NCBI GenBank assembly: GCA_964361795.1
Contig: CAYIBZ010000002.1
Span: forward strand, 9,362 to 73,361
Direction: 5' to 3'
Length of the DNA: 64,000 nucleotides
Source: an uncultured Candidatus Saccharibacteria bacterium
GTDB taxonomy: Bacteria; Patescibacteriota; Minisyncoccia; UBA6257; WO2-44-18
Shown here: positions 1 through 63,121 of the stretch, in pieces
How positions within the stretch are numbered: position 1 is the stretch's first letter
Layout of the letters: the number at the start of each line of letters is the position of its first letter
Made by a program: the position numbers and the translations under genes
The notes under the pieces: generated by a model
Seen by the model: the letters and a program-made list of their open reading frames with translations, nothing else
What the model was told of the DNA's origin: nothing
Database searches by the model: none

Positions 1-53
1 GTCAATGGATGCCGCCGCGATGACCTACTTTATCGGAAAGAAAAAAGGATAAA

Positions 54-5721: not shown

Positions 5722-6840
5722 TTATTTCTTAAGGATTTTCTCTTTTTCCAATTTTTTCATGCTCTCTTGAAGATATTTTATAGCCTCCGGACAGCTTTTT
5801 GCCCATTCTACAAACTCCGTAACACTATCGAAAATATTTCGCTTGGGCCGCCAACCCAACTTTTTGAGTTTGGAAATGTCCATTATGGAATTACGCGGAG
5901 CGTTAATCCTGAACAGGCCGGGCAAGACCGTACGGAATTTAACTCTCACAAATTTACAAACTGCCCTCGCGAGATCATTTACTCTAGTTTGGCCTCCACT
6001 ACCGACATTAAAGACCTGATAATCCGCTCGCGGATCTTTCAAAACTGTAAGGTGGGCGTCAACAACATCATGAACATTAACAAAATCCCGAACCTGCTGG
6101 CCATCTTCCTGCATTACAATCGGTTGATCGGCCAATGCTCGCACGCAGAAATCCCGTAAGGCTCCGGAATAGAAATGACGGATGGACTGGCGTGATCCCT
6201 GGACAATCGAATAGCGAAGCGCAACGGACGGTATCTGATAAATTTTTCCAAGGATTATAGCAGTTTTTTCTGATGCCCACTTGGAAATACCATAGGGTAT
6301 CACAGGTTTCGGATCATCATCTTCCAGTTCCGGCATCGGTTCAGCTAATGCTTGATCTTTGGGACAAATCACTTCCCATTGATGTCCATGTAATTGCGAT
6401 TCCGGCCGTGATTCGGCGTAAAAAACACCATGCTTCGAACAACGGTACTTGCCTTCTCCGTAGAGAGATTGAGAAGAGGCCACGATTACCTTCTTTATCG
6501 GTAGCTTCTTTTCCAGAATAATTTCATAAAGCAAAGCTGCGCTACGTGAATTAGTATCAAAAAAAGTAGAAAAATCCGGATGATAATCCATGTAAGCGGC
6601 CAGATGGAAAACGTAAGAAACGCCCCGCAGCGCTTTTTCCCAATCTTTCTTATTCCGCACATCGCCCTTCATGAACTTCGCCTTTTTATTAAACCAATCC
6701 GGCAACTTACCGTTGTGAGTAGGCGGTTGAAGATTATCCAGCACCCGGACTCGATAACCATTTTCAATCAGCGCGTCCACTAGGTGCGAACCGATGAATC
6801 CGGCCCCGCCAGTTACTAAAACAAGGTTATTTTTGGGCAT
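5722..6840 (-). CDS. NAD-dependent epimerase/dehydratase family protein with Cys-containing insertion
   Basis: LVTGGAGFIGSHLVDAL Rossmann motif and YGISK (YxxxK). Extended SDR with an inserted segment containing CSKH...ICPKD. Confidence 0.65.
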   Translation of the reverse strand: MPKNNLVLVTGGAGFIGSHLVDALIENGYRVRVLDNLQPPTHNGKLPDWFNKKAKFMKGDVRNKKDWEKALRGVSYVFHLAAYMDYHPDFSTFFDTNSRSAALLYEIILEKKLPIKKVIVASSQSLYGEGKYRCSKHGVFYAESRPESQLHGHQWEVICPKDQALAEPMPELEDDDPKPVIPYGISKWASEKTAIILGKIYQIPSVALRYSIVQGSRQSIRHFYSGALRDFCVRALADQPIVMQEDGQQVRDFVNVHDVVDAHLTVLKDPRADYQVFNVGSGGQTRVNDLARAVCKFVRVKFRTVLPGLFRINAPRNSIMDISKLKKLGWRPKRNIFDSVTEFVEWAKSCPEAIKYLQESMKKLEKEKILKK

Positions 6841-20557: not shown

Positions 20558-21742
20558 TTATTTTCGATTCCAGGGAATGCGCGGCTGGATAATAGTGATG
20601 TCAATCAAATCTCTGACATTCATAATTTCTTTCAGCATGGAATTAACTAATTCTTCGGAGAGTTTAATCGGCTTCAATCCTAGTTTCAGCAAGGATTCAT
20701 TGTTGGCATTATAGTAGTGCTCCTCTTTTTCAATTCGGGGATTAGGTAAATGATCAATACTGACTTTCAAACCAAGCTTAGCGCCTGCTTTCTGAACGGC
20801 CTCGGCCAGCTCAAGAACAGAAAATATCTCGGTGAACTGGTTGAGAACGCGGAATTCTGCCTCTTGGGCAGGATTCTCCACCGCCAAGGTAACGCACTGC
20901 AAAGTATCTCTAATGTTCAAAAATCCGCGCTTCTGTCCACCCTTGCCGTAAACGGTCAACGGGACACCAGCTACTGCTTGAACGCAGAAACGGTTTAGCG
21001 CCGTACCGAAGATGTCGTCGTAGTGAAAACTGGTCAAAAGACCCAGATGCAATTCGGTGCAATCTGTATGGATGCCATAAACAACGCCCTGGTTAAGGTC
21101 AGTGGCTCTTAAACCCCAAGTACGGCAGGCAAACTCGATGTTATGGCTGTCATGTACTTTGCTTAAGTGATAAAAAGACCCAGGACGTTTGGGATACAAA
21201 AGACGATCTTGCCGCCCTTTGTGTGCCACATTCAACCATCCCTCTTCAATATCTATGTTTGGCGTTCCGTATTCACCCATAGTCCCCAGCTTAACTAAGT
21301 GAGCACTAGGAACGTAACGTTTGATAGCAAATAGAAGATTAAGCGTGCCAACCACGTTATTTTTCTGTGTGAAAGCTGCCTTCTGTCGGCTAAACATCGA
21401 ATAAGGAGCTGATGGCTGTTCCGCGTAATGAATAACAGCATCTGGCCGAAACTCTTCAACAATCTTGAATAGGAATCGGTCATTCTCCGCTATGTCGCAA
21501 GCATAAATCTTAATTGTCTTACCGGTGACTTGCCGCCAAACACTGGCCCGTCTCTGCAGAGACGGTATCGGCCATAATGGCATGGAACCAAATTCAGCTT
21601 CCCAAACTCTTTTAGCCATGTTGTCCACAACTACCACATCATAGCCACGGTTGGATAAATGCATTGCTGTCGGCCATCCAAGGTAACCATCACCGCCAAG
21701 AATCATGATCTTCTTCACTTTGACTCCTTTTAAAAGTGCCAT
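20558..21742 (-). CDS. sqdB: UDP-sulfoquinovose synthase (SQD1/SqdB/Agl3-like)
   Basis: Long near-identical blocks to plant SQD1: GGDGYLGW, HLVKLGTMGEYGTPNIDIEEGW, FYHLSKVHDSHNIEFACRTWGLRATDLNQGVVYG, GTALNRFCVQAVAGVPLTVYGKGGQKRGFLNIRDTLQCV. Confidence 0.8.
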   Translation of the reverse strand: MALLKGVKVKKIMILGGDGYLGWPTAMHLSNRGYDVVVVDNMAKRVWEAEFGSMPLWPIPSLQRRASVWRQVTGKTIKIYACDIAENDRFLFKIVEEFRPDAVIHYAEQPSAPYSMFSRQKAAFTQKNNVVGTLNLLFAIKRYVPSAHLVKLGTMGEYGTPNIDIEEGWLNVAHKGRQDRLLYPKRPGSFYHLSKVHDSHNIEFACRTWGLRATDLNQGVVYGIHTDCTELHLGLLTSFHYDDIFGTALNRFCVQAVAGVPLTVYGKGGQKRGFLNIRDTLQCVTLAVENPAQEAEFRVLNQFTEIFSVLELAEAVQKAGAKLGLKVSIDHLPNPRIEKEEHYYNANNESLLKLGLKPIKLSEELVNSMLKEIMNVRDLIDITIIQPRIPWNRK

Positions 21743-33486: not shown

Positions 33487-34530
33487 TTATTTCCTTCTTC
33501 GGCTTTGCGCCAACAGAACCTTAAAAAACTGCCAATAACTAGTTCGGGAATTTCTAATCAAATCACCGATAGTAGTTTCTTGAAAATATTTTTCCATATC
33601 TTTTAAGCGAGTATAGGAAATGTGGGGATCCCAATGATGGAGCATGTGACGATTAAAGCCAGCAGATCCAAATGATTGAGAAAACCAATCGTCGCCGAAT
33701 AATCGAAGAGTGGCGCCATGAGGAATTTTAAAATAGTCGGCTTCCGGATCGGCATTCTCGCTGCGGTGTCTCAAGATCTGCCGAATGGTTCCCAAGAATG
33801 GCCAGAAAATAACCACGCCAAGAAACCAGGCAGCGGCCGCTGCGTAATTACCAAAGCTGATCAAAAATATAAGAATAGCGGACTGAACTACGACCAAACG
33901 AGCGGGATTTTTCCATTTAAGGACTTTTTTGACAGGTGACGATATTTCGGCGGTTTCTAGTTCAGAATAGTGGAAAATGGTTTTTAAGGCATGGATTGCG
34001 GTAATAGCTCGGAGCAAAAAAGATGGCTTTAAAGCATTAAAATAAGACTGTTCAGTATCTTGCAGCGAACCGAGATATAAATGATGAGGCCAATGAATTT
34101 TTCTATAAGATTCAACACTAGTAAAAAGCAATGGGCAAATCAGCCAATTGCCTAAAATATCGTTCCAACGACGATTGGGATGAATGTTAAAATGCACCGC
34201 CTCATGTAAAAACAAACTCAAAGAATGCAGCCAATAACCAATCCACATTCCGGAAAAAATTGAGGCAATCAAAGCGGCGGGAAAGCTTAAAATCGGCTGG
34301 ATAAAAATAATTGCGCCAACGCCCAATAATAAAAGAAAATAACAAACAAAAACATCTCGCCACACTATCAGGTATCTCGGCTTAAGCTGTTTGCGGAACT
34401 CGGGCCAAGAAACCGGCAAGTGGACGCTCATTTTTTCTAAATCTGGGGTCCCAGGAAGGCCTGAACGGTATTCAAGAAAATTAATGTCATCCACACTACA
34501 CATCTTATAGAAAATAGACCTCAAAAACAA
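33487..34530 (-). CDS. membrane fatty-acid desaturase/hydroxylase family protein (di-iron His-box)
   Basis: Three His boxes: HEAVHFNIH, HWPHHLY and HMLHHW. Multiple TM helices. Confidence 0.6.
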   Translation of the reverse strand: MFLRSIFYKMCSVDDINFLEYRSGLPGTPDLEKMSVHLPVSWPEFRKQLKPRYLIVWRDVFVCYFLLLLGVGAIIFIQPILSFPAALIASIFSGMWIGYWLHSLSLFLHEAVHFNIHPNRRWNDILGNWLICPLLFTSVESYRKIHWPHHLYLGSLQDTEQSYFNALKPSFLLRAITAIHALKTIFHYSELETAEISSPVKKVLKWKNPARLVVVQSAILIFLISFGNYAAAAAWFLGVVIFWPFLGTIRQILRHRSENADPEADYFKIPHGATLRLFGDDWFSQSFGSAGFNRHMLHHWDPHISYTRLKDMEKYFQETTIGDLIRNSRTSYWQFFKVLLAQSRRRK

Positions 34531-36652: not shown

Positions 36653-37706
36653 TGTACAAATTCATGTAATGACTGGCGGCTTTCTCCCAGCTCATTTCTT
36701 TGGCAAATTTAATGGATTCTTGCGACATACTTTTGTGCAAATTTTTATCGGATAAAATTTTTTCCGTTGCCAAGGCTGCGGCTTGAAAATCTTGCGGCGA
36801 AACTAAAAATCCATTTCGGCCATCTAATACCGCATCCTCGGCGCTGGTTTCTTTGGTCGTCACTATCGGCAACCCCGCCGCGGCGGCCTCTAAAAACACC
36901 AATCCGAACCCTTCAATATCCTTATTGCTATCTTGTGGCAACAGGATAAACAGCTCAGCATTTTTGTACAAAGCGATCAATTCTTCCTCGCGCAAATCGC
37001 TTAAAAAAATTACCCGATCGTCCAATTCTAGATTCTGGATTCTAGATTCTAGATTCTGTCTTTCTGATCCATCACCGACTATAACGTATTTTAAATCTCT
37101 AAATTTTTCGGCGATTTTGGCAAACGCCTCAATTGAATATTCAAACCCCTTCCGTTTTTTCAACGCCCCAACACTTAAAATATAGGGTCTGAATTGTTGG
37201 GTGTTTTCGTCTCGAACATTTCCAACATTTCGAACATCAAACTTGCGAAAATCTACTCCATGATTAATCACCTCAATCTTTAAATCCGGTAAAAACTTTT
37301 GAATTTCTTTCTTAGTGTTATTGCTGACGGCAATCACTTTGCCAGCTTTGCGGTACGCCCATCTTAAAAGTGGTCGCTTCCAAAAGGAATAAAGCGACTT
37401 AACCGCTCCCGTGCCGATGGCGGTAATAATCAATTTCTTTTTCAAACCAAGAGAGGCGACCGCAGCAATAACTCCATACGGCCAACCATCCAGCGCGTGA
37501 ATAACATCGCAACTCTTGAAAACCTTTCTTATCATCGGAAAAGCTAAAAGTAATTTCAATTTGTTCGGACATAAGATATTTTCGGATGTTAAAATCTCAA
37601 TGCCAACTCCGGGAATCGCTTTTTTTACGGCCGCCGACAATGAATTATAAAATCGGCCTGCGCCGGTATTATTGCGCGTGTCATGATTTAGATAGCAGAT
37701 TTTCAT
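36621..37706 (-). CDS. glycosyltransferase family 4 (GT-B, retaining)
   Basis: GFGLVFLEAAAAGLPIVTT (E-x7-E-like GT4 motif) and a GRL-type C-terminal domain start. The linker contains a heptamer tandem repeat (37022-37057). Confidence 0.7.
   Translation of the reverse strand: MKICYLNHDTRNNTGAGRFYNSLSAAVKKAIPGVGIEILTSENILCPNKLKLLLAFPMIRKVFKSCDVIHALDGWPYGVIAAVASLGLKKKLIITAIGTGAVKSLYSFWKRPLLRWAYRKAGKVIAVSNNTKKEIQKFLPDLKIEVINHGVDFRKFDVRNVGNVRDENTQQFRPYILSVGALKKRKGFEYSIEAFAKIAEKFRDLKYVIVGDGSERQNLESRIQNLELDDRVIFLSDLREEELIALYKNAELFILLPQDSNKDIEGFGLVFLEAAAAGLPIVTTKETSAEDAVLDGRNGFLVSPQDFQAAALATEKILSDKNLHKSMSQESIKFAKEMSWEKAASHYMNLYINVLFGTASR
37022..37057. repeat. heptamer tandem repeat (AGATTCT/GGATTCT x5) in-frame in GT4 gene, encoding NLESRIQNLE
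   Basis: CAATTCT-AGATTCT-GGATTCT-AGATTCT-AGATTCT. Three units make 21 nt, so frame is kept. Confidence 0.55.
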
Positions 37707-37826
37707 CCCGTTAGAGACAGGTCCCGCTAGCGGGACCGTAACTCGGCCGAATATTTGATACCGACGTTTTATGAATAAATATCATTGTATTTCCTTTAAT
37801 CATTGATTAGTTGTCTCTAACGGGAC
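37707..37826. repeat. 120-nt intergenic unit exactly bounded by 14-bp inverted repeats (TCCCGTTAGAGACA / TGTCTCTAACGGGA) with internal perfect 18-nt palindrome GGTCCCGCTAGCGGGACC
   Basis: Left arm 37706-37719 and right arm 37812-37825. The palindrome lies at 37720-37737. The unit fills the whole gap between the start of 36621..37706 and the stop of 37827..38555. Confidence 0.45.
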
Positions 37827-43997: not shown

Positions 43998-44522
43998 ATG
44001 TCAAATTTTTTTGTAAAACGAGACGAACTTAAAAAATCAGATGCGATAGTAGTTTTAACGGGAAATGGTTGGGAACGAACAGAATGGGCCATAAAACTCT
44101 ATAAGCAAGAATGGGCAACTCTACTAGTTATGATCGGATCTACGGGTAGCAGACCATCACCGGAAATGGCTGAATTTGCGGAACAGTTCGGCATTCCTAA
44201 AAATAAGATACTTATTGATACTAATTCAACCAACACCCGCCTCAATGCAAATAATGTCGTTGGACTTGCTCAAAAATACGGATGGGAACAAATTATTCTT
44301 GTTACTTCGCCCCACCACCAACTACGCTCCTATCTAACATTTAAAAAAGCAATTAAAGATTTTCAGGGCCATCTCAAAATCATTAACTATCCTCCCTTGC
44401 AATACAGCTGGTTTGAGTTAGTGGAAAGTTCAAGAAACAAAAAACACAAAGTATTAAGATTTTTTTATTTATTCAGCGAACTTTATCGAATCTTAAAGTA
44501 TAGAATCAAAGGAGATTTATAA
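43998..44522 (+). CDS. DUF218 / YdcF-SanA-ElyC-like protein
   Basis: DAIVVLTGNGWERTEWAIKLY and LILVTSPHH resemble the DUF218 family. One of only four plus-strand genes in the window. Confidence 0.45.
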   Translation: MSNFFVKRDELKKSDAIVVLTGNGWERTEWAIKLYKQEWATLLVMIGSTGSRPSPEMAEFAEQFGIPKNKILIDTNSTNTRLNANNVVGLAQKYGWEQIILVTSPHHQLRSYLTFKKAIKDFQGHLKIINYPPLQYSWFELVESSRNKKHKVLRFFYLFSELYRILKYRIKGDL

Positions 44523-45645
44523 GAGAATTTTTATATCTTTGTAAATATTCGGATTTCGAAGGAAACTGCTTTGATATTGCCAAAGTATTTCGAGAAAATT
44601 CGCCTCTTTGTTTGGGATGATTAATCAACCAAATAACTTTTTCTGCCAAAGTTAGTGCGTCACCAACAGGAACTACGAACCCATTGATACCATCCTTAAT
44701 AATTTCACGCGCAGGCGCGACATCTGTCATAATGACAGGTAACCCAGCTGCCGCAGCTTCAACTGGCGATCTTGCTCCGCCTTCATAGTTTGATGTAAGG
44801 ACAAAAACGTTGGATGTTCTGTAATAGGAAACCAAATCATCGGTCCACGGTTCAAGAATAATGTTATCCTTCAATTTTAAATTTTCAATTTTAAATTTTA
44901 AATTTCGGTGTTCCGGTCCTTCACCAACAATCAATAGTAACGACTTGGGATTGTGTTTAATAATCTCTGTCATAGCTTGTATAGCCAATCCTACATTTTT
45001 CTCTCGAGTCAAACGAGACGCAACTAAAATTATCGATTCGAAATTCGGGTATTTTTTATGGAGATCAATAGAAACCGGTTGCTTCTGAAAATCATCGGTA
45101 TCAAAAATTATCGGCAAAACAGTAATTTTAGAGGATGGCAGCTGGAAATTTTTAACTAAACTTTGCCTAATTCGTTCGCTTACCACTCGAACTCCATCGG
45201 CTTTTTTAATCAACCATGAACCTAGAAAAACTCGTATTTTATTTTTCCATGATTCTCTTTTAAAATAAGGACTTAAAAAATCACTGTGACTTTGAATTTG
45301 CAGTGGAATTTTAAATTCTTTTTTCAGCCAATAACCGACTAGTGCGGTTTCGAAAGGATCTTGGGTGGTAATAATCCAAGGATTTAGAATTTCGGATTTA
45401 GAATTTAGAATAATTTTTTTTGCTATTCGATAAACATCAAAAAAATAAAACAGCTTAAATCTGGTATTGGTTGGATAAATGAACACATGATTACTAGATC
45501 CTAAATTCTGCATTCTAAATCCTCGCTTGGTGTAAATAATAATATGCAGTTCCTCAAATAATCCGCCATAATCAATCATCCGCTGTCGAACAGAGGATTT
45601 TTCTTCAAAAATCTTTTGATCTGTAGAGAGTATTAACAACTTCAT
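44506..45645 (-). CDS. glycosyltransferase family 4
   Basis: GGARSPVEAAAAGLPVIMT motif. Contains two in-frame heptamer repeat tracts (44884-44918 and 45380-45414). Confidence 0.6.
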   Translation of the reverse strand: MKLLILSTDQKIFEEKSSVRQRMIDYGGLFEELHIIIYTKRGFRMQNLGSSNHVFIYPTNTRFKLFYFFDVYRIAKKIILNSKSEILNPWIITTQDPFETALVGYWLKKEFKIPLQIQSHSDFLSPYFKRESWKNKIRVFLGSWLIKKADGVRVVSERIRQSLVKNFQLPSSKITVLPIIFDTDDFQKQPVSIDLHKKYPNFESIILVASRLTREKNVGLAIQAMTEIIKHNPKSLLLIVGEGPEHRNLKFKIENLKLKDNIILEPWTDDLVSYYRTSNVFVLTSNYEGGARSPVEAAAAGLPVIMTDVAPAREIIKDGINGFVVPVGDALTLAEKVIWLINHPKQRGEFSRNTLAISKQFPSKSEYLQRYKNSLINLL

Positions 45646-46316
45646 AATTTTTCGAGAACGAAAAATTTGTGATAATGATCCAAAACCGGCCTGACTTCCT
45701 TGATAATACGAAAATACTTATTTAATTCTTTACGAATCTTACGAATTCGCCATCTATAAAGATCTATTTCCCAATAATGTTGGCCGGATGTTTTAATGCC
45801 GTTAAATTTAAGGGGTAACCGTAGGAAAAAGCTTAAAAAAGATTTTTTTAATAGAGTTCTAATGCCGGGAAATTTAAAAACAAATTCCCATCCTGTTGAA
45901 CGATAAGGCAAAGAAATAATGACATGTTTTTTGGAAACTCTTTGTAATTCTCTTAATGCCTTGGGGAAATCTTCATAGGAAATATGCTCCAAAACCTCAA
46001 AAGCGGTTACTATGTCAAAAGATTTATCCGATATTGGCAATGATCGGATGTCGGCAACAATATCCGGATTTAAACTCCCATCAAAATCCGCAGTGGTAAC
46101 GCTATGGCCATTTTTTTTCATATAATTCGAAAAAAATCCGTTACCTTTTCCAACTTCCAAAATTCTTGGTTCATTCGTATCATTAGCATGCATTCGCATA
46201 TTGGCATCGCGTTGCGCAACTTGCTGCGTTAAATCAACCTGATAAAAATAGGAAATAAACCTGTCAAGATCGTCGTATTTTTTCCGACAATAGTGCTCTT
46301 TATTTACTTGCGTCAT
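45642..46316 (-). CDS. class I SAM-dependent methyltransferase
   Basis: ILEVGKGNGFFSNYM motif I and DIVTAFEVLEHI motif II. Confidence 0.6.
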   Translation of the reverse strand: MTQVNKEHYCRKKYDDLDRFISYFYQVDLTQQVAQRDANMRMHANDTNEPRILEVGKGNGFFSNYMKKNGHSVTTADFDGSLNPDIVADIRSLPISDKSFDIVTAFEVLEHISYEDFPKALRELQRVSKKHVIISLPYRSTGWEFVFKFPGIRTLLKKSFLSFFLRLPLKFNGIKTSGQHYWEIDLYRWRIRKIRKELNKYFRIIKEVRPVLDHYHKFFVLEKL

Positions 46317-48525
46317 GTATTAAGTTTACTAGATTATCAACGGTTCGGCTTATGGAAAATTGCTGGGCCTTTTCTTTGGCGTTTTTGACTATCATTTCAC
46401 GAAAATCTTCGTCCCTGCTGATTCTTTCTATGGCAGTTAAAATCTGTTCTTTATTGTTCGGTTCAACCAAGATTCCCTCTTTCCCGTCCTCTATTATCTC
46501 GGTCAGGTTGCCGATATTGGTAGTCACAACGGGCACGCTAGCGTTCATTGCTTCAACCACCTGAAAAGAAAAGCTCTCAAATGAAGTATTAAGTACAAAA
46601 ACGGATGCTTTTCGCAAATGGTCCAAAAGTTTTTCCCTAGGTATCGAACCGGCTAAACTGACTTGATTATTTAATTTTAAATTTTCCTTGCCTACCGGCA
46701 GGCAGGCAATTTTAAATTTTAAATTATCGTATTCCGGCCCGTCGCCAACAATAATCAACCGCCAATCCGGCAAATCTTTCATTATATCAATCAAAACGTC
46801 AAATCCTTTCCACGGAACTAGCCTGCCGGCCGATAGTATCGTTTTGGAATTTGGTCCGCCAGCTGGCGGATTATTTTGCATTTGGATTTTGGCATTTGGA
46901 TTTTGCAATTGAATACCGTTGTAAATAACTTTGACTTTTTTCGGATTTTTTATCCAACCGCCGACCAGTTTTTGGAAATACTTGCTCGGCGTGATGACCA
47001 AATCGGCGCGGCCAACAACCCATTTCTGAATGTTACGCAATAGTTCCGTCCGCCAACCGTATCTTCGTTTTTGAAAATCATCGATTCCGTCTTTCACTCC
47101 GAAACGCTGGACGGCCTGCTCCCAGGCATAGTCTCCCGCCACACGAATGAAGAATTTTTTACCCAATATTCTCGCCGCTAACAGCGAAGGTAGGCCAACA
47201 CTGACGGGATCCTGAGCGTATACGATCTCGAAATTCTTGGACTTCCACAGGCAACTCCAAAAATAGGCTAGGTGCCTGATAATTTTCGGTTTTTTGCGAA
47301 ATTCGGTAAATGCCAGATGATCCACCTTAAAACTTCGTTTGGGTAATTCTTCTTCCAAAAGCTCGGTATAGGTGGCTGGACCCCCGATATCTGGAGGATA
47401 GATACCGGTTGCTATGAGCAACCGCTTAATTTTCAATTTTTGAAATATGGATTCCATTTTTGAGGATATTAAATCCCAAGAATAGTTTTCTAAAACCAGC
47501 TTGCGGCCGTTTTCGGAAAGTCTCGCATACAGTTTACTGTCAGTGAGTAAAATTTTCATTTTCTCCGCCAAATCTTTTGGATCGTCTACTTTAGCAAGAA
47601 GTCCCGTAGCCACTTGCCCTGAGCTTACCGAAGGATTTTTTAGGAAATCGGGAATGCCGCCCACGGCTGTTCCGATGACAGGTAAACCAGCCGCCATTGC
47701 CTCTAAAAATGAACTCCCCAATCCTTCTGATCTGGATGGCCTGACAAAAATATCTGCTTTTGCGAGATATTCCGGAATTTTCTCGGGGTCAATATGTCCC
47801 AAGAATTCAATGTAATTTTCTACTCTTAAATCCCTGACTAATTGTTTAAGTTTCAATTCGTCAGGACCGCTACCTAAAATTTTCAATTTACAATTTTTAA
47901 TTTTCAATTTATGAAGTTCGGGTATAGCGCAAATTAGGGTGTCAAGTCCGTTTTTATGCACCAGTCGCGAAGTCGTAATAATTATTTTAGCATTTGGATT
48001 TTGGGATTTTTTTTGAAAATTGAAAATTGTAAATTGAAAATTTTCTAGCGATACTCCATTCGGCACCACTTCAATTGGACATATCGCTCCATACCTTTTT
48101 GCAAAGTCGGCCAAATAATTACTGATTGCTTGAATACGATCCGCTCTTTTAAAGATTAGTCTCCAAAATGGATACAAAATTCCCACACGATTCAATATAT
48201 GCCCTTCCGAATCACCTTCCTGTAGAGTCAATAAAAAAGGGATTTTCGGATGCCGTAATTTAAATAAAAGCGCCGCGAAACCCGCATATGCGGCCATCAC
48301 TCCCCAAATCGCCTTGAAGGGCTCTTTCTTATGGGCGCGCTCCGCCGCCAACCATGAACGGAAGATATAAAAAAACTTTGCCGGCCTGCCATGGCCGTAT
48401 TTTTGAAAATCATGAGCGAAAATTTGAAAATCAAAATCCGGAAGGCGTTCCATTATTTCTTTCACGGCTATTTCCGCTCCACCGACAAATGGCGAATATG
48501 CAAGACTAAAAACGGCTACTTTCAT
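46300..48525 (-). CDS. tandem GT4-GT4 fusion glycosyltransferase (741 aa)
   Basis: Module 1: AYSPFVGGAE ... EGLGSSFLEAMAAGLPVIGT. Module 2: IYPPDIGGPATY ... FSFQVVEAMNASVPVVTT. Both linkers carry AT-rich repeat tracts. Module 2 carries the 47-nt palindromic segment. Confidence 0.65.
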   Translation of the reverse strand: MKVAVFSLAYSPFVGGAEIAVKEIMERLPDFDFQIFAHDFQKYGHGRPAKFFYIFRSWLAAERAHKKEPFKAIWGVMAAYAGFAALLFKLRHPKIPFLLTLQEGDSEGHILNRVGILYPFWRLIFKRADRIQAISNYLADFAKRYGAICPIEVVPNGVSLENFQFTIFNFQKKSQNPNAKIIITTSRLVHKNGLDTLICAIPELHKLKIKNCKLKILGSGPDELKLKQLVRDLRVENYIEFLGHIDPEKIPEYLAKADIFVRPSRSEGLGSSFLEAMAAGLPVIGTAVGGIPDFLKNPSVSSGQVATGLLAKVDDPKDLAEKMKILLTDSKLYARLSENGRKLVLENYSWDLISSKMESIFQKLKIKRLLIATGIYPPDIGGPATYTELLEEELPKRSFKVDHLAFTEFRKKPKIIRHLAYFWSCLWKSKNFEIVYAQDPVSVGLPSLLAARILGKKFFIRVAGDYAWEQAVQRFGVKDGIDDFQKRRYGWRTELLRNIQKWVVGRADLVITPSKYFQKLVGGWIKNPKKVKVIYNGIQLQNPNAKIQMQNNPPAGGPNSKTILSAGRLVPWKGFDVLIDIMKDLPDWRLIIVGDGPEYDNLKFKIACLPVGKENLKLNNQVSLAGSIPREKLLDHLRKASVFVLNTSFESFSFQVVEAMNASVPVVTTNIGNLTEIIEDGKEGILVEPNNKEQILTAIERISRDEDFREMIVKNAKEKAQQFSISRTVDNLVNLIHDASK
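46673..46719. repeat. 47-nt segment AATTTTAAATTTTCCTTGCCTACCGGCAGGCAGGCAATTTTAAATTT, copy 1 (inside tandem GT4 gene, in-frame, encodes KIACLPVGKENLKL)
   Basis: Identical to 49042-49088. GC-rich imperfect palindrome core (TTGCCT...AGGCAA) flanked by direct AATTTTAAATTT repeats. Confidence 0.6.
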
Positions 48526-49643
48526 GATTTATAAATTTCTTCGGTTTTTTTAATCATTGTCAGCAAATTCAATTTTTCTTTCAAAAAATTGTTGGCTTTG
48601 GCGGCAAAATCTCTTGCGTCTTGTGGATGTTCTAATAAGTAGCTTACTGCCCTTGCTAATTCTTGGGGTTCCTTGGGGGGCATCACTAATCCCCGTCCTT
48701 CAATAATTTCAGTCATTCCGCCAACGCGCGTCACCACAAGCGGAATTTCTGCCGCCATCGCCTCGAGCATAGTATATGGCAGTCCTTCTTTAATAGAAGT
48801 TAAAAGAAAAATATCAAATGCTTTCAAATACGGGGCGGCTGGCGCGATATTTTCTAAAATGAAAAACCGATCGCCTAATCCTAAGTTCTGAATTCTAGAC
48901 TCTAAATTCTTCTTTAACGGTCCCGAACCGATAATAAAAAAATTAACATTAGGTAATAACGCGGCGCTTTCCAGGAAAGTTATATAATCTTTTTCCGTTA
49001 CTAAACGGCCAACAGAACCTATCCATATGCCATCAATTTTCAATTTTAAATTTTCCTTGCCTACCGGCAGGCAGGCAATTTTAAATTTCTTTAGCAATTC
49101 CCGACGAGCTTCTATTTTTCCTAAAAAATTTATTGGCGCAATACCATTATATATAGTTACTAATTTTTCAAATGGCGCGATTTTGTGATTAATAGCTAAT
49201 TGTTTGTCATATTCAGAGACATTAATAATAACGTCTTGGAATCTGGCGGCTATTTTATGCAGCCAGATATAGAAATGCCTCTTTAAAGAATTTAATTTAT
49301 TATTTGGATTAAAAACCCATCCATGCGCGGTAAAAATAATCTTTTTAACTCCTGCCAACCTTGCCGCAATGGCTCCTATAACACCCGCCTTGGAACTGTT
49401 AAGATGTACAATATCTGGCTTTTCTTTCCAAAAAAAGAAAAGTAATTCTCCTAAAGCTAACAGATCGTTAATAAACAAAAAATGAGGCAAAAGAGAATTA
49501 GACAGGAAACGAGCGCCAGTCCTGCCGCCAGTTAAAATCTTCAATTCAAATCTGCTAAGGTCAAGATTTTCTTTAAGATCTTTGACGTACTTCTGCGCGC
49601 CGCCAACATCATCTTTCGTCACTAAAAGGATGATCTTAATCAT
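48522..49643 (-). CDS. glycosyltransferase family 4
   Basis: EGLPYTMLEAMAAEIPLVVTRVGG and GRLVTEKD motifs. Contains a second copy of the 47-nt palindromic segment. Confidence 0.7.
   Translation of the reverse strand: MIKIILLVTKDDVGGAQKYVKDLKENLDLSRFELKILTGGRTGARFLSNSLLPHFLFINDLLALGELLFFFWKEKPDIVHLNSSKAGVIGAIAARLAGVKKIIFTAHGWVFNPNNKLNSLKRHFYIWLHKIAARFQDVIINVSEYDKQLAINHKIAPFEKLVTIYNGIAPINFLGKIEARRELLKKFKIACLPVGKENLKLKIDGIWIGSVGRLVTEKDYITFLESAALLPNVNFFIIGSGPLKKNLESRIQNLGLGDRFFILENIAPAAPYLKAFDIFLLTSIKEGLPYTMLEAMAAEIPLVVTRVGGMTEIIEGRGLVMPPKEPQELARAVSYLLEHPQDARDFAAKANNFLKEKLNLLTMIKKTEEIYKS
49042..49088. repeat. 47-nt segment, copy 2 (inside GT4 gene 48522..49643, in-frame, encodes KIACLPVGKENLKL at a non-homologous position)
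   Basis: Identical 47-mer to 46673-46719. It lies before the GRL motif of this GT4, whereas copy 1 lies in the inter-domain linker. Confidence 0.6.
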
Positions 49644-50482: not shown

Positions 50483-50507
50483 ACCCCTCCGATGTCCATC
50501 GGAGGGG
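50462..50507 (-). terminator. intrinsic terminator downstream of the giant surface-protein gene
   Basis: CCCCTCCGATG-TC-CATCGGAGGGG, a 9-11 bp GC-rich stem at 50484-50507. The minus strand continues TTTGCGTTTTAGTCATTTTTTT. Confidence 0.5.
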
Positions 50508-50544
50508 TAGCGCTTTAACTAAAGCTCAAGCCTTTAGCTAAGAA

Positions 50545-61951: not shown

Positions 61952-63121
61952 TTATTTTAACAATTTTATCAAAACAGAGGTAACGTAATCAAGGTCTTTT
62001 TTCGCGGTTTGCCTCCCTAAACTAAACCTTAAACTTCCCGACGCCCGCTCTTTGGAAAACCCCATCTCTTCTAATACGAAAGATGATCTGGAGATTCGAG
62101 TAGTGCAAGCGGCGCCGGGAGACGCGGCAACGCCCGCTAAATCAAGTTTAATTTGCAGTTCATGGGCGTTCTGTCCCGGAAAATAGACGTTCAAATTATT
62201 CGGCGATCTATTTCTCATTGACCCGTTAAGTTCTAATTTTGGCAGTGTTTTATGAAGTTTCGCCCAAAAATAATTCCGCAACCCCGCCGTTCGCTTGCTT
62301 TCTTTTTCGCACATTCGGTCCGCGATTTCCGCCGCTTTGGCAAACCCAACTATATAAGGGACATTATCAGTGCCGGTAATGATCGGCTTCAAGGCCTTTG
62401 GATCGCGAACATACAATGCGCCGATCCCTTTCGGCCCATAAATTTTATGCGCTGATAGAGTCATTAAATCCACGCCCAAATCGTTTACGTTGCAATTTAA
62501 ATACTGAAACGCTTGAACAGCGTCAGTATGGAAAAGGGGCTTCATCATTGAATAAAAATTATTTATGATTCTAGAAATTTCCCTAATCGGCTGAATCGTC
62601 CCAATCTCGTTATTGGCATACATCACCGAAACCAAAACTGTCCGTTCATTAAGAGCGGATTCCAGTTTCTTCAAATCCACAATTCCTTCTCGGTTAACCG
62701 GAATATAAACTATCTCAACTCCGTCTTTTGCCAGATCTTTGCAGGTTTCCAAAATAGAATCGTGTTCAATCGCCGAAACTATAATACGAGGATTCAGAAT
62801 ATAGGATTTAGAATACGGGAATTTGGAAATAGCCTTTTTCCTAAATTCTGAATTCTGAATTCTATATCCTCTCGCAACTCCTTGGAGCGCTAAATTATTC
62901 GCCTCTGTCGCCGAACCGGTAAAAATAATCTGCTTATAATCCGCTCCGATGGATTCGGCAATTTTTCGGCGCGCGGCAAAAACCGCCCGCGAAGCTTCCT
63001 GCCCAAAACCATGCAGGGCATTTGGGTTGCCGAAAATTTTTCCAAAATACGGCTTCATCGCCTTTTCCACTGCCGGATCCACCGGCGTTGAGGCCGCGTA
63101 ATCTAGGTAGACTTTTTCCAT
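61952..63121 (-). CDS. cysteine desulfurase (IscS/NifS family, PLP-dependent)
   Basis: SAHKIYGPKGIGALYV PLP-lysine motif, GSATEANNLALQG, and a C-terminal active-site region. Carries an in-frame insertion of about 22 aa, encoded by a heptamer-repeat hairpin at 62790-62869. Confidence 0.8.
   Translation of the reverse strand: MEKVYLDYAASTPVDPAVEKAMKPYFGKIFGNPNALHGFGQEASRAVFAARRKIAESIGADYKQIIFTGSATEANNLALQGVARGYRIQNSEFRKKAISKFPYSKSYILNPRIIVSAIEHDSILETCKDLAKDGVEIVYIPVNREGIVDLKKLESALNERTVLVSVMYANNEIGTIQPIREISRIINNFYSMMKPLFHTDAVQAFQYLNCNVNDLGVDLMTLSAHKIYGPKGIGALYVRDPKALKPIITGTDNVPYIVGFAKAAEIADRMCEKESKRTAGLRNYFWAKLHKTLPKLELNGSMRNRSPNNLNVYFPGQNAHELQIKLDLAGVAASPGAACTTRISRSSFVLEEMGFSKERASGSLRFSLGRQTAKKDLDYVTSVLIKLLK
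62790..62869. repeat. 80-nt hairpin-forming heptamer-repeat insertion (GGATTCA GAATATA GGATTTA GAATACG ... TAAATTC TGAATTC TGAATTC) in-frame in the cysteine desulfurase gene
   Basis: Two arms of GAATTC-type heptamers in inverted orientation around TAGCC. Encodes about 22 extra aa (RIQNSEFRKKAISKFPYSKSYILN) absent from canonical IscS. Shares the 11-mer GGATTTAGAAT with the 45380-45414 tract in a GT4 gene. Confidence 0.5.

What the first reader, a model, noticed from the sequence alone, without database searches (positions are those of the whole stretch)
46673..49088. Identical 47-nt palindrome-containing segment inserted in-frame in two different GT4 glycosyltransferase genes
46673-46719 and 49042-49088 are identical: AATTTTAAATTTT-CCTTGCCTACCGGCAGGCAGGCA-ATTTTAAATTT. 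A GC-rich imperfect palindrome is flanked by direct AATTTTAAATTT repeats. Both copies are translated in frame as KIACLPVGKENLKL, but at non-homologous positions. One lies in the inter-domain linker of module 2 of the tandem GT4. The other lies before the GRL motif of GT4 48522..49643. The GT4 at 44506..45645 has the uninterrupted NLKFKIENLKLK version of the same linker. This suggests a 24-nt core inserted into a pre-existing AATTTTAAATTT repeat. The behaviour resembles Rickettsia palindromic elements, which insert in-frame into coding sequences.
Basis: seen in the sequence. Interest (0 to 1): 0.6.

Follow-up and report, generated by a model that had tools for sequence, protein, structure and literature searches.

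The report
Tiny palindromic insert, shared across phyla
Two neighbouring sugar-transferase genes of a groundwater ultra-small bacterium each carry, in frame, the same 21-base GC-rich palindromic insert; it belongs to a family of 20-base palindromes found with identical sequence in at least eleven bacterial phyla and in phage contigs, so it looks like one of the smallest mobile DNA elements known, and what moves it is unknown.

Summary
Positions 46673-46719 and 49042-49088 are identical and are read in frame as KIACLPVGKENLKL in two GT4 genes at non-homologous positions.

Orthologues and a paralogue keep the uninterrupted NLKFKI|ENLKL site with identical DNA. The insert is therefore exactly 21 nt (7 aa), not 24. 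It sits in a heptanucleotide array that encodes a native helix.

The core is not specific to these genes. The exact 21-mer occurs in at least 120 species genomes from at least 11 phyla, with unrelated flanks. It is a minor variant of a 20-nt perfect palindrome, CCTGCCTGCCGGCAGGCAGG, that is also present in metagenomes and in 54 viral contig stretches.

Copies are enriched in three contexts:
- heptamer arrays (19% against 1.7%);
- hairpin apices (15% against 2.4%);
- the centre of other copies, and tRNA loops.

About 19% lie deep inside ORFs, always in frame. No neighbouring gene recurs, and there is no Rfam or literature match.

Best reading: a very small non-autonomous mobile palindrome, most like the Nostoc small dispersed repeats. 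It behaves like Rickettsia palindromic elements but is not one. The enzyme and the transposition chemistry are inferred, not shown. A second such palindrome, TCCGCCAGCTGGCGGA, sits in the same gene.

The parts
46673..46719 (-). 47-nt identical unit, copy 1: AT-rich heptamer arms plus the GC-rich core, in frame in the 741-aa tandem GT4 (FKI-ACLPVGK-ENLKL)
   Evidence: As single-stranded DNA it folds into one extended hairpin whose base coincides with the end of the identity.
46686..46706 (-). The 21-nt insertion proper (CCTTGCCTACCGGCAGGCAGG; the 20-nt unit is 46687-46706). It encodes ACLPVGK, residues 607-613.
   Evidence: Empty site AAAATT|GAAAAT in paralogue 44873-44898 and in orthologues L244 and L245, with identical flanking DNA.
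49042..49088 (-). 47-nt identical unit, copy 2, in frame in the 373-aa GT4, in the linker before the first strand of the C-terminal domain
   Evidence: Flanks match copy 1 at 27 of 28 positions.
49055..49075 (-). 21-nt insertion, copy 2 (20-nt unit 49056-49075). It encodes ACLPVGK, residues 190-196.
   Evidence: The closest orthologues (65-67% identity, 363-365 aa) lack both array and core here. The AF2 model places it in a coil with pLDDT below 50.
44873..44898 (-). Unoccupied target: uninterrupted AATTTTAAATTTTC|AATTTTAAATTT array encoding NLKFKIENLKL in the paralogous 379-aa GT4
46300..48525 (-). Host gene 1: tandem (two-module) GT4 glycosyltransferase, 741 aa
48522..49643 (-). Host gene 2: GT4 glycosyltransferase, 373 aa
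46855..46870 (-). Second, unrelated small palindrome TCCGCCAGCTGGCGGA, in frame (NPPAGGP) in a CAAAATC/CAAATGC heptamer array of the same 741-aa gene
   Evidence: Exact copies occur in unrelated loci L063, L092 (three), L138. It is read in another frame at the same linker of orthologue P0125.

Best explanation
The GC-rich core is a copy of a very small, non-autonomous dispersed element. The element is a 20-nt self-complementary sequence. Its master form is the perfect palindrome CCTGCCTGCCGGCAGGCAGG; the window carries the minor variant CTTGCCTACCGGCAGGCAGG plus one extra C.

It encodes nothing and must be copied or moved by a factor supplied in trans.

It lands preferentially in DNA that can leave the duplex form: tandem heptanucleotide arrays, the 3' side of hairpin loops including tRNA loops, and the exact centre of other copies. 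It makes no target duplication, or one of a single base. My preferred mechanism, which is inferred and not shown, is insertion of the element as a single-stranded hairpin into transiently single-stranded, folded DNA. The candidate enzymes are an HUH/Y1-type single-strand transposase or a reverse-transcriptase route.

Inside genes only 3n versions in tolerant loops survive.

In this genome one 21-nt copy entered the heptamer array that encodes the helix NLKFKI|ENLKL of the tandem GT4. The 45-47-nt hairpin made of the core plus its AT-rich arms was then probably copied into the linker of the adjacent GT4. I put this at about 65:35 against an independent hit on an identical array.

Both proteins most likely stay functional, with a 7-aa surface excursion.
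For: SHOWN - insertion:
- Orthologues P0133, P0138 and P0125 and the paralogue carry NLKFKIENLKL, encoded by the same 33 nt without the 21 nt.
- Orthologues of the 373-aa GT4 lack it.

SHOWN - dispersal:
Hosts include Bacteroidota/Ignavibacteria, Patescibacteria, Planctomycetota, Omnitrophota, Nitrospirota, Chloroflexota, Proteobacteria and others. Among them are the isolate Terrimonas sp. R1 and a 3.6-Mb contig.
- Family sample from metagenomes: perfect palindrome 78, one-mismatch form 42, CTTGCC forms 10.
- 54 viral contig stretches carry it.

SHOWN - repeated independent hits in this same GT4 family, in other positions, frames and orientations: P0047/P0057 AYRQAG, P0113 CLPVGR, P0127 LPAGRQG (the window's exact 21-mer in a TTAGAAA array), P0125 PACRQA.

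SHOWN - context, sites against random positions:

| Context | Sites | Control | P |
|---|---|---|---|
| Period-7 flanks, family | 18.6% | 1.7% | 1e-12 |
| Period-7 flanks, exact 21-mer | 9/120 | 41/3600 | 2e-5 |
| Hairpin of 6 bp or more closed across the insert | 14.7% | 2.4% | 1e-7 |
| Same, exact 21-mer | 10.8% | 2.0% | not computed |

SHOWN - other features:
- Self-nesting at the palindrome centre, and tandem copies.
- Copies in tRNA D-loops and variable loops.
- The unit is 20 nt. The base before and after is the same in 32 of 78 cases against 19 expected.
- 43 of 222 copies lie deep in ORFs and all are in frame. Deleting 20 nt does not restore ORFs.
- Copies within one genome share flanks: 35% of pairs have at least 18 of 28 identical bases, against 0.25% between genomes. 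The window pair scores 27 of 28.
- Both peptides fall in low-confidence surface coil of otherwise confident GT-B models (pLDDT 88.9 and 90.6).
Against: - No insertion event was observed, and no presence/absence difference was found between near-identical strains. The closest empty sites are in orthologues of only 61-67% protein identity.
- No enzyme was identified. No protein family recurs within 3 kb of the copies.
- Most copies (about 65-70%) are in neither a heptamer array nor a hairpin apex, so structure targeting is a tendency, not a rule.
- Identity of a 20-mer across phyla is hard to reconcile with ordinary selfish-element drift. It demands either very frequent horizontal spread or strong constraint from the recognising factor.
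- Shared flanks within genomes can equally mean repeated hits on a multi-copy target sequence.
- The collection scans were capped at 120 rows, so copy numbers per genome and true taxonomic breadth are unknown.
Confidence: 0.8

Rival explanations
1. Plain ectopic gene conversion or segmental duplication between two neighbouring paralogous GT4 genes; no mobile element is involved.
For: The two genes are adjacent and of the same family. The identity includes 13 + 13 nt of flank.
Against: - The two sites are non-homologous positions of the fold, and identity ends after 47-61 nt.
- The same 20/21-mer occurs in hundreds of unrelated contexts and phyla.
- It occurs at other positions in orthologues.
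- Micro-conversion may still explain how the second copy arose from the first.
Confidence: 0.05
2. The palindrome is a functional site kept by selection: a binding site for a conserved dimeric protein, an uptake or segregation signal like parS or DUS, or an RNA hairpin. Its occurrences evolved or are maintained in place.
For: - A perfect 20-bp palindrome is the commonest form, and sequence identity across phyla is extreme.
- From my own knowledge: parS is a precedent for a palindrome conserved across phyla and lying inside genes.
Against: - It is a clean insertion relative to orthologues.
- It nests inside itself and forms tandems, and sits in tRNA fragments and hairpin loops.
- Density is low, 1-8 copies seen per genome.
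- There is no positional regularity, no associated gene and no Rfam family.
- A function acquired after insertion is not excluded.
Confidence: 0.07
3. Repair scar. Breaks at hairpin tips or slipped repeats are healed after both ends receive the same 10-nt cap (transposon-end or telomerase-like addition), and ligation then creates a palindrome.
For: - The perfect two-fold symmetry of the main form, the absence of a target duplication, the preference for break-prone structures, and insertion at the exact centre of existing copies.
Against: - The halves are not independent. The single-variant form makes up 32%, yet the double variant CCTACCGGTAGG is 0 of 130, against 5.6 expected, and 1 of 63 in viral contigs. 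Whole 20-mers are therefore copied.
- No parent element with these termini was seen in 900 kb of loci.
Confidence: 0.06
4. Artefact of sequencing or assembly: a linker or adapter, or a chimera.
For: A self-complementary 20-mer resembles a synthetic linker. Many carriers are MAGs.
Against: - The flanks are contiguous in orthologous genes and the reading frame is kept.
- Two independent contigs encode the same proteins.
- It is present in an isolate genome, in a single-cell genome, and in assemblies from many laboratories; some contig names suggest long-read assembly, which I did not check.
- Sequence variants occur at the same site in 98%-identical contigs.
Confidence: 0.01

Closest known systems
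Small dispersed repeats (SDR1-8) of Nostoc punctiforme and relatives (Elhai et al. 2008, Genome Res 18:1484). The paper is not held in the library and its content is recalled from my own knowledge. Its existence and a brief description are cited in PMC3116915, PMC2884548 and PMC4390886.
   Same: - Size class (21-27 nt against 20-21 nt) and hairpin-forming sequence.
- Several unrelated families in the same genomes.
- Frequent embedding in tandem heptameric repeats, and nesting inside copies of themselves.
- Precise insertion without an obvious target duplication. SDR5 inserts at a fixed point in HIP1.
- No encoded protein and an unknown mechanism.
   Different: - SDRs were reported as essentially confined to one cyanobacterial subgroup. 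This family is identical in at least 11 phyla and in phage contigs.
- The main form is a perfect palindrome.
- Many copies are translated in frame inside enzymes.
- Sequence relatedness to any SDR could not be tested here.
Rickettsia palindromic elements (RPE; Ogata et al. 2000), about 105-146 bp (PMC3184786)
   Same: A palindromic repeat inserted in frame into unrelated protein genes, adding a peptide that the fold tolerates.
   Different: The present element is five to seven times smaller. It is not restricted to Rickettsia, shows no sequence relation, and occurs equally in non-coding hairpins, arrays and tRNAs.
REP / REPIN sequences mobilised by RAYT (Y1 HUH) transposases (PMC3116915, PMC3733652, PMC3184786)
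   Same: GC-rich palindromes of 20-40 nt, non-autonomous. The hairpin is the likely recognised form. Copies within a genome share extended context.
   Different: - REPs are extragenic and occur in hundreds of copies.
- They are species-specific in sequence and carry a terminal GTAG or CGTC tag.
- They flank a RAYT gene.
- None of these features was found here.
Dispersed tandem-heptanucleotide elements: cyanobacterial STRR, and the 4x GGGACCG elements at 49 intergenic and intragenic sites in Geobacter metallireducens (PMC2700814)
   Same: Short arrays of 3-5 heptamers scattered through a genome, including inside genes. These are the preferred landing context here.
   Different: They are the host context, not the palindrome. 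In this window the arrays encode native protein segments by three-frame reading.

Membership tests
Rickettsia palindromic elements (RPE) | Length about 105-146 bp with a long stable hairpin | tested here: not met
   The insert is 21 nt, or 47 nt with the shared arms. RPE size is taken from PMC3184786.
Rickettsia palindromic elements (RPE) | In-frame insertion into unrelated protein-coding genes, tolerated by the fold | tested here: met
   Two GT4 genes in the window, and 43 of 222 family copies deep in ORFs, are all in frame. The peptides fall in low-pLDDT surface coil.
Rickettsia palindromic elements (RPE) | Restricted to Rickettsia, with sequence similarity to RPE-1..8 | tested here: not met
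   The host is a Parcubacteria-type groundwater bacterium. Carriers span at least 11 phyla. Direct sequence comparison with RPE consensus sequences was not possible.
REP / REPIN-RAYT | Extragenic location | tested here: not met
   44-52% of copies lie in open frames of at least 100 aa, and 19% lie deep in ORFs.
REP / REPIN-RAYT | Conserved GTAG or CGTC tetranucleotide at one end of the palindrome | tested here: not met
   The main form starts with CCTG and ends with CAGG. GTAG appears only internally, in one variant. The feature is taken from PMC3733652.
REP / REPIN-RAYT | Hundreds of copies per genome and an associated RAYT gene flanked by repeats | tested here: inconclusive
   There are 2 copies in 64 kb, and at most 8 loci were seen per genome under a capped scan. 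No recurrent neighbouring protein was found. Whole genomes were not available.
Small dispersed repeats (SDR, Nostoc) | 21-27 nt dispersed repeat predicted to form a hairpin | tested here: met
   A 20-21 nt palindrome. DNA fold -5.6 kcal/mol, z = -2.5.
Small dispersed repeats (SDR, Nostoc) | Often embedded in tandem heptameric repeats | tested here: met
   18.6% against 1.7% of control positions, P = 1e-12. 9/120 against 41/3600.
Small dispersed repeats (SDR, Nostoc) | Nested insertion into copies of itself | tested here: met
   CCTGCCTAC[copy]CGGACAGGCAGG and similar in L009, L037, L088, L092, L169, L170, L176, L178 and L228. Tandem copies in L109 and L121.
Small dispersed repeats (SDR, Nostoc) | Confined to a coherent subgroup of cyanobacteria; sequence identity to SDR1-8 | tested here: not met
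   No record title names a cyanobacterium; the record titles name at least 11 other phyla (some records are unclassified). Sequence identity to SDR1-8 is not testable because the paper and its sequences are not held.
MITE | Terminal inverted repeats plus a target-site duplication of 2 bp or more, at least about 50 bp long, with a parent IS sharing the ends | tested here: not met
   The element is 20 nt and consists of nothing but two abutting 10-nt inverted halves. The duplication is 0-1 nt. No longer element with these termini was found.

The most novel reading that the evidence does not exclude
These 16-21-nt GC-rich palindromes (at least two unrelated families in this one gene) are an unrecognised, pan-bacterial class of ultra-small mobile DNA. 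An unknown, widely distributed trans-acting machinery would write them, with identical sequence, into folded single-stranded DNA: heptanucleotide arrays, hairpin loops and tRNA loops. It would do so across phyla and in phages. As a by-product it would continually remodel surface loops of proteins in the candidate phyla radiation (CPR) bacteria and in other environmental bacteria.
Probability: 0.35. Interest if true: 0.9.

Novelty: new variant of a known kind. Interest (0 to 1): 0.72.

Why it matters
If the reading is right, a 20-base sequence with no coding capacity is being copied with perfect fidelity into genomes of at least eleven phyla and their phages. It would be among the smallest mobile elements known, and far more widespread than the cyanobacterial small dispersed repeats that are its only close precedent.

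Three consequences follow:
- There would have to be an unidentified enzyme system that recognises a 20-nt hairpin and inserts it at structured DNA with almost no footprint. That is of mechanistic interest and possibly of use as a tool.
- It would provide a marker for very recent DNA exchange between distant phyla.
- It would show a concrete route by which enzymes of ultra-small bacteria gain new surface loops, seven residues at a time.

It also ties the unexplained heptanucleotide arrays of several phyla to a common process.

Tried and rejected
- Rfam: no family in the window at gathering score, and only noise at E up to 10 around the two sites.
- Literature: no paper contains the 16-20-nt strings. 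Keyword searches found nothing beyond the known small-repeat literature. The Elhai 2008 paper is not held.
- Plasmids of cultured bacteria: only chance 18-nt matches.
- Exact 21-mer in viral contigs: 0. The family pattern does occur there.
- Composite 32-mer (core plus 5-6 nt of array on each side) in metagenome contigs: 0, so no relatives could be found for a presence/absence test.
- Associated gene: all-against-all clustering of 1,464 ORFs within 3 kb of copies gave only housekeeping families, such as ABC transporter, sigma-54 activator and PNPase.
- Parent element: no longer element bounded by the two half-sites.
- Mini-intron or disruptive-insert idea: deleting 20 nt does not restore ORFs any more than deleting 19, 22 or 23 nt.
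- Intragenic inverton idea for the inverted heptamer-array pairs: in-silico inversion introduces stop codons.
- Selection on the core inferred from orthologous filled sites (for example L046 and L066): rejected as evidence because both were retrieved by exact match, which is an ascertainment bias.
- L122 against L123: 98% identical, so uninformative.
Full report
**1. The observation**

The two 47-nt stretches, 46673-46719 and 49042-49088, are identical. The 23-nt GC-rich core occurs exactly twice in the window, against none in 100 shuffles. Around them similarity drops to 61 nt at 90% and then ends.

Both copies lie in minus-strand ORFs that Pfam assigns to GT4 glycosyltransferases. Both are read as K-I-A-C-L-P-V-G-K-E-N-L-K-L.

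The contig comes from 0.1-µm-filtered Hainich groundwater. The nearest homologues are from Parcubacteria/Paceibacteria-type CPR bacteria.

**2. It is an insertion, and its exact size**

- Orthologues of the 741-aa tandem GT4 at 61-66% identity read GDGPE..NLKFKIENLKL. The window reads NLKFKI-ACLPVGK-ENLKL.
- At the DNA level, orthologues L244 and L245 and the window's own paralogue (44873-44898) carry AAT TTA AAA TTT AAA ATT | GAA AAT TTA AAA TT. This is identical to the window's flanks but lacks the 21 nt GCC TGC CTG CCG GTA GGC AAG.
- The insert is therefore 21 nt and 7 aa, not 24.
- The AATTTTA repeats at this site are not foreign. They are the native coding sequence of the helix that follows the GDGP motif in the C-terminal Rossmann domain.
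- For the 373-aa GT4, the closest orthologues (65-67% identity, 363-365 aa) have a shorter linker with neither array nor core.

AlphaFold models are confident overall, with mean pLDDT 88.9 and 90.6.
- In the 373-aa protein, residues 190-196 fall in a coil between helix 176-186 and strand 207-211, with pLDDT below 50 at 191-198.
- In the 741-aa protein, residues 607-613 fall at the end of helix 599-608, before strand 622-626, with pLDDT below 50 at 614-616.

**3. The core is not a property of these genes**

About 0.3 would be expected by chance for 596 Gb; that estimate is my own arithmetic.

Flanks are unrelated. Only positions -2 (purine, 83%) and -1 (C, 53%) are biased.

Record titles name:
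- about 53 Bacteroidota/Ignavibacteria;
- 29 Patescibacteria of many classes;
- 9 Planctomycetota, 8 Omnitrophota;
- Nitrospirota, Chloroflexota and Proteobacteria;
- Thermodesulfobacteriota, Bipolaricaulota, Acidobacteriota and Actinomycetota.

They include a cultured isolate (Terrimonas sp. R1), a single-cell genome, and contigs of 1.07 and 3.6 Mb.

Extra copies in these loci that differ at the 21st base show that the unit is 20 nt.

A degenerate scan of metagenome contigs gave a sample that is unbiased at three variable positions:

| Form | Count |
|---|---|
| Perfect palindrome CCTGCCTGCCGGCAGGCAGG | 78 |
| CCTGCCTACCGGCAGGCAGG | 42 |
| CTTGCC forms (the window's exact 20-mer: 3) | 10 |
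| Double variant | 0 (5.6 expected if the halves were independent) |

The same pattern occurs in 54 viral contig stretches. One 29.5-kb contig holds six copies.

There is no Rfam family and no occurrence of the strings in the searchable literature. It is not in plasmids of cultured bacteria.

**4. Where copies sit**

In the family sample, comparing sites with random positions of the same contigs:
- flanks with period-7 self-identity of at least 0.45: 18.6% against 1.7% (P = 1e-12);
- a hairpin of at least 6 bp closing across the insert: 14.7% against 2.4% (P = 1e-7);
- open frame of at least 100 aa: 44% against 84%.

The exact-21-mer set gives the same picture.

In hairpin hosts the asymmetric variant always abuts the 3' arm, in the order loop, element, 3' arm, and the net insert is 20 nt. 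This rests on about five independent cases.

Copies also lie:
- at the exact centre of other copies, and in tandem;
- at the 3' end of the D-loop in tRNA fragments (L024, L243 twice, L295);
- in the variable-loop position of a tRNA-Met that ARAGORN still accepts, where the palindrome forms an extra arm.

The bases before and after the perfect palindrome are the same in 32 of 78 cases against 19 expected. This would turn 20 nt into 21.

Of 222 copies with enough flank, 43 lie deep in ORFs and all are in frame. Removing 20 nt restores no more ORFs than removing 19, 22 or 23 nt, so there is no sign of intron-like or disruptive copies.

**5. Repeated independent hits in the same protein family**

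Among 240 CPR GT4 homologues fetched for other reasons, family copies are translated in five further proteins, in other positions, frames and orientations:
- P0047 and P0057, AYRQAG: same linker as the 373-aa gene, opposite orientation, in a CTAAAAC array.
- P0113, CLPVGR: same linker.
- P0127, LPAGRQG: inter-module linker, the window's exact 21-mer in a TTAGAAA array.
- P0125, PACRQA.

This is the strongest comparative evidence for mobility available here.

**6. The two copies in the window**

Within genomes, copies tend to share about 10-14 nt on each side. Of within-genome pairs, 35% have at least 18 of 28 identical flank bases, against 0.25% of between-genome pairs. This holds in 8 of 15 multi-copy genomes. 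The window pair scores 27 of 28.

Two readings remain.
- (a) The 45-47-nt hairpin made of the core plus its arms was copied from the helix site of the 741-aa gene into the linker of the 373-aa gene.
- (b) The 21-mer hit two identical arrays.

I favour (a), at about 65:35, for three reasons:
- The arms are native sequence at the first site.
- Orthologues have no array at the second site.
- The identity ends where the predicted extended hairpin ends (z = -2.2 to -2.9).

However, arrays do occur in that linker in other orthologues.

**7. Mechanism: shown and inferred**

Shown:
- insertion, dispersal, context preferences and in-frame survival;
- a footprint of 0-1 nt;
- propagation of whole 20-mers, including asymmetric variants;
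- absence of a linked gene and of a longer parent element.

Inferred: the element moves as a single-stranded hairpin into folded single-stranded DNA, catalysed in trans.

The enzyme is unknown. HUH/Y1 transposases of the IS200/IS605-RAYT type are the known enzymes that recognise small DNA hairpins and join without target duplication. This statement rests on established knowledge, not on a test made here. A reverse-transcriptase route was proposed for the Nostoc repeats; that is recalled from memory.

I put about 0.8 on "dispersed insertion element" and no more than 0.3 on any specific chemistry.

**8. Comparison with known systems**

- It works like Rickettsia palindromic elements in being translated in frame. 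It fails their size, host and sequence criteria.
- It fails the REP/RAYT criteria: it is not extragenic, has no terminal GTAG or CGTC tag, and shows no RAYT association and no high copy number.
- It fails the MITE criteria.
- It meets every behavioural criterion I recall for the Nostoc small dispersed repeats: size, hairpin, heptamer arrays and self-nesting. It differs in host range (at least 11 phyla plus phages) and in being a perfect palindrome.

Hence my classification as a new variant of a known kind.

**9. Limits**

- The collection scans are capped, so copy numbers and full taxonomic range are unknown.
- Many carriers are MAGs.
- No near-identical strain pair with filled and empty sites was found.
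- The Elhai paper could not be read.

Noticed in passing
window 46855-46870: A second, unrelated perfect palindrome TCCGCCAGCTGGCGGA sits in frame (NPPAGGP) inside a CAAAATC/CAAATGC heptamer array of the same 741-aa GT4. Exact copies occur in unrelated loci (L063, L092 three times, L138). It is read in another frame (LARQLADG) at the same linker of orthologue P0125, and as FNPPAGGLNP in P0036.
   Followed up: partly
window 37025-37057, 44873-44905, 45380-45411, 45494-45523, 46873-46911, 47878-47910, 48013-48042, 48879-48903, 49033-49055, 62789-62863: Short tandem heptanucleotide arrays (3-5 units) lie inside coding sequences of several GT4 genes and of a class-V aminotransferase. The GT4 helix after G-D/S-G-P is a three-frame reading of such an array. 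Orthologues use a different heptamer at the same place (NLKFKIENLKL, NLESRILNLEL, LELRIKNYEL, LQLLITNYQL). Residues 3, 4 and 5 therefore co-vary as the DNA unit dictates, which points to concerted evolution at the DNA level inside a conserved helix.
   Followed up: partly
window 47876-47907 / 48013-48044; 45379-45408 / 45494-45523; 62789-62815 / 62844-62863: The same heptamer array occurs in both orientations. The first pair is 32 nt and 97% complementary; the first two pairs are 105 and 85 nt apart, and I did not measure the spacing of the third. The first pair brackets the segment KIIITTSRLVHKNGLDTLICAIPEL inside its gene. In-silico inversion introduces stop codons, so these are not coding invertons.
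   Followed up: yes
L283 2239-2330; L024 ~800-880; L243 664-683 and 839-858; L295 ~515-534: A phage-contig tRNA-Met carries the 20-nt palindrome at the variable-loop position and is still called as a tRNA with a long extra arm. Four tRNA 5' fragments carry the palindrome at the 3' end of the D-loop. In L243 and L295 a small GIY-YIG-type ORF starts right after the fragment.
   Followed up: partly
L024 ~851, L089, L142, L072, L188: A third small hairpin family, CCCGAT(n)ATCGGG, occurs as a roughly 20-nt insert. One copy lies next to the main palindrome in the same pseudo-tRNA-Leu.
   Followed up: no
L010, L120, L006, L028, L051, L107 and protein P0042: The widespread 'gtcattcccgc..gcgggaatc' hairpin repeats serve as hosts for the palindrome. 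They are themselves translated (PTKAGIQ) in the same GT4 linker of another orthologue.
   Followed up: no
L279, L288, L290 (IMGVR_UViG_3300037242_000417): One 29.5-kb viral contig holds six copies of the perfect palindrome, mostly at the apex of repeated composite hairpins. Its genes were not examined for a candidate enzyme.
   Followed up: no
window 21548-21565, 33828-33845, 37720-37737, 50483-50508: The window has 22 GC-rich near-palindromes of at least 14 nt, against about 7 in shuffles. They include the perfect 18-mers CCGTCTCTGCAGAGACGG and GGTCCCGCTAGCGGGACC. Neither of those two was found in the fetched loci.
   Followed up: partly
window 5722-6840: The NAD-dependent epimerase ORF matches its Pfam model in two stretches (residues 7-132 and about 172-344). 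This suggests a roughly 40-residue insertion of unknown nature.
   Followed up: no
A1 columns 154-165 (homologues P0014, P0015, P0019, P0023, P0042, P0054, P0065): A second loop of the 373-aa GT4 family, before the strand KVIFTAHGW, is filled in many orthologues with low-complexity peptides typical of heptamer arrays, for example YRAIGRIGLIGLIGPIK. The window protein has the short form.
   Followed up: no
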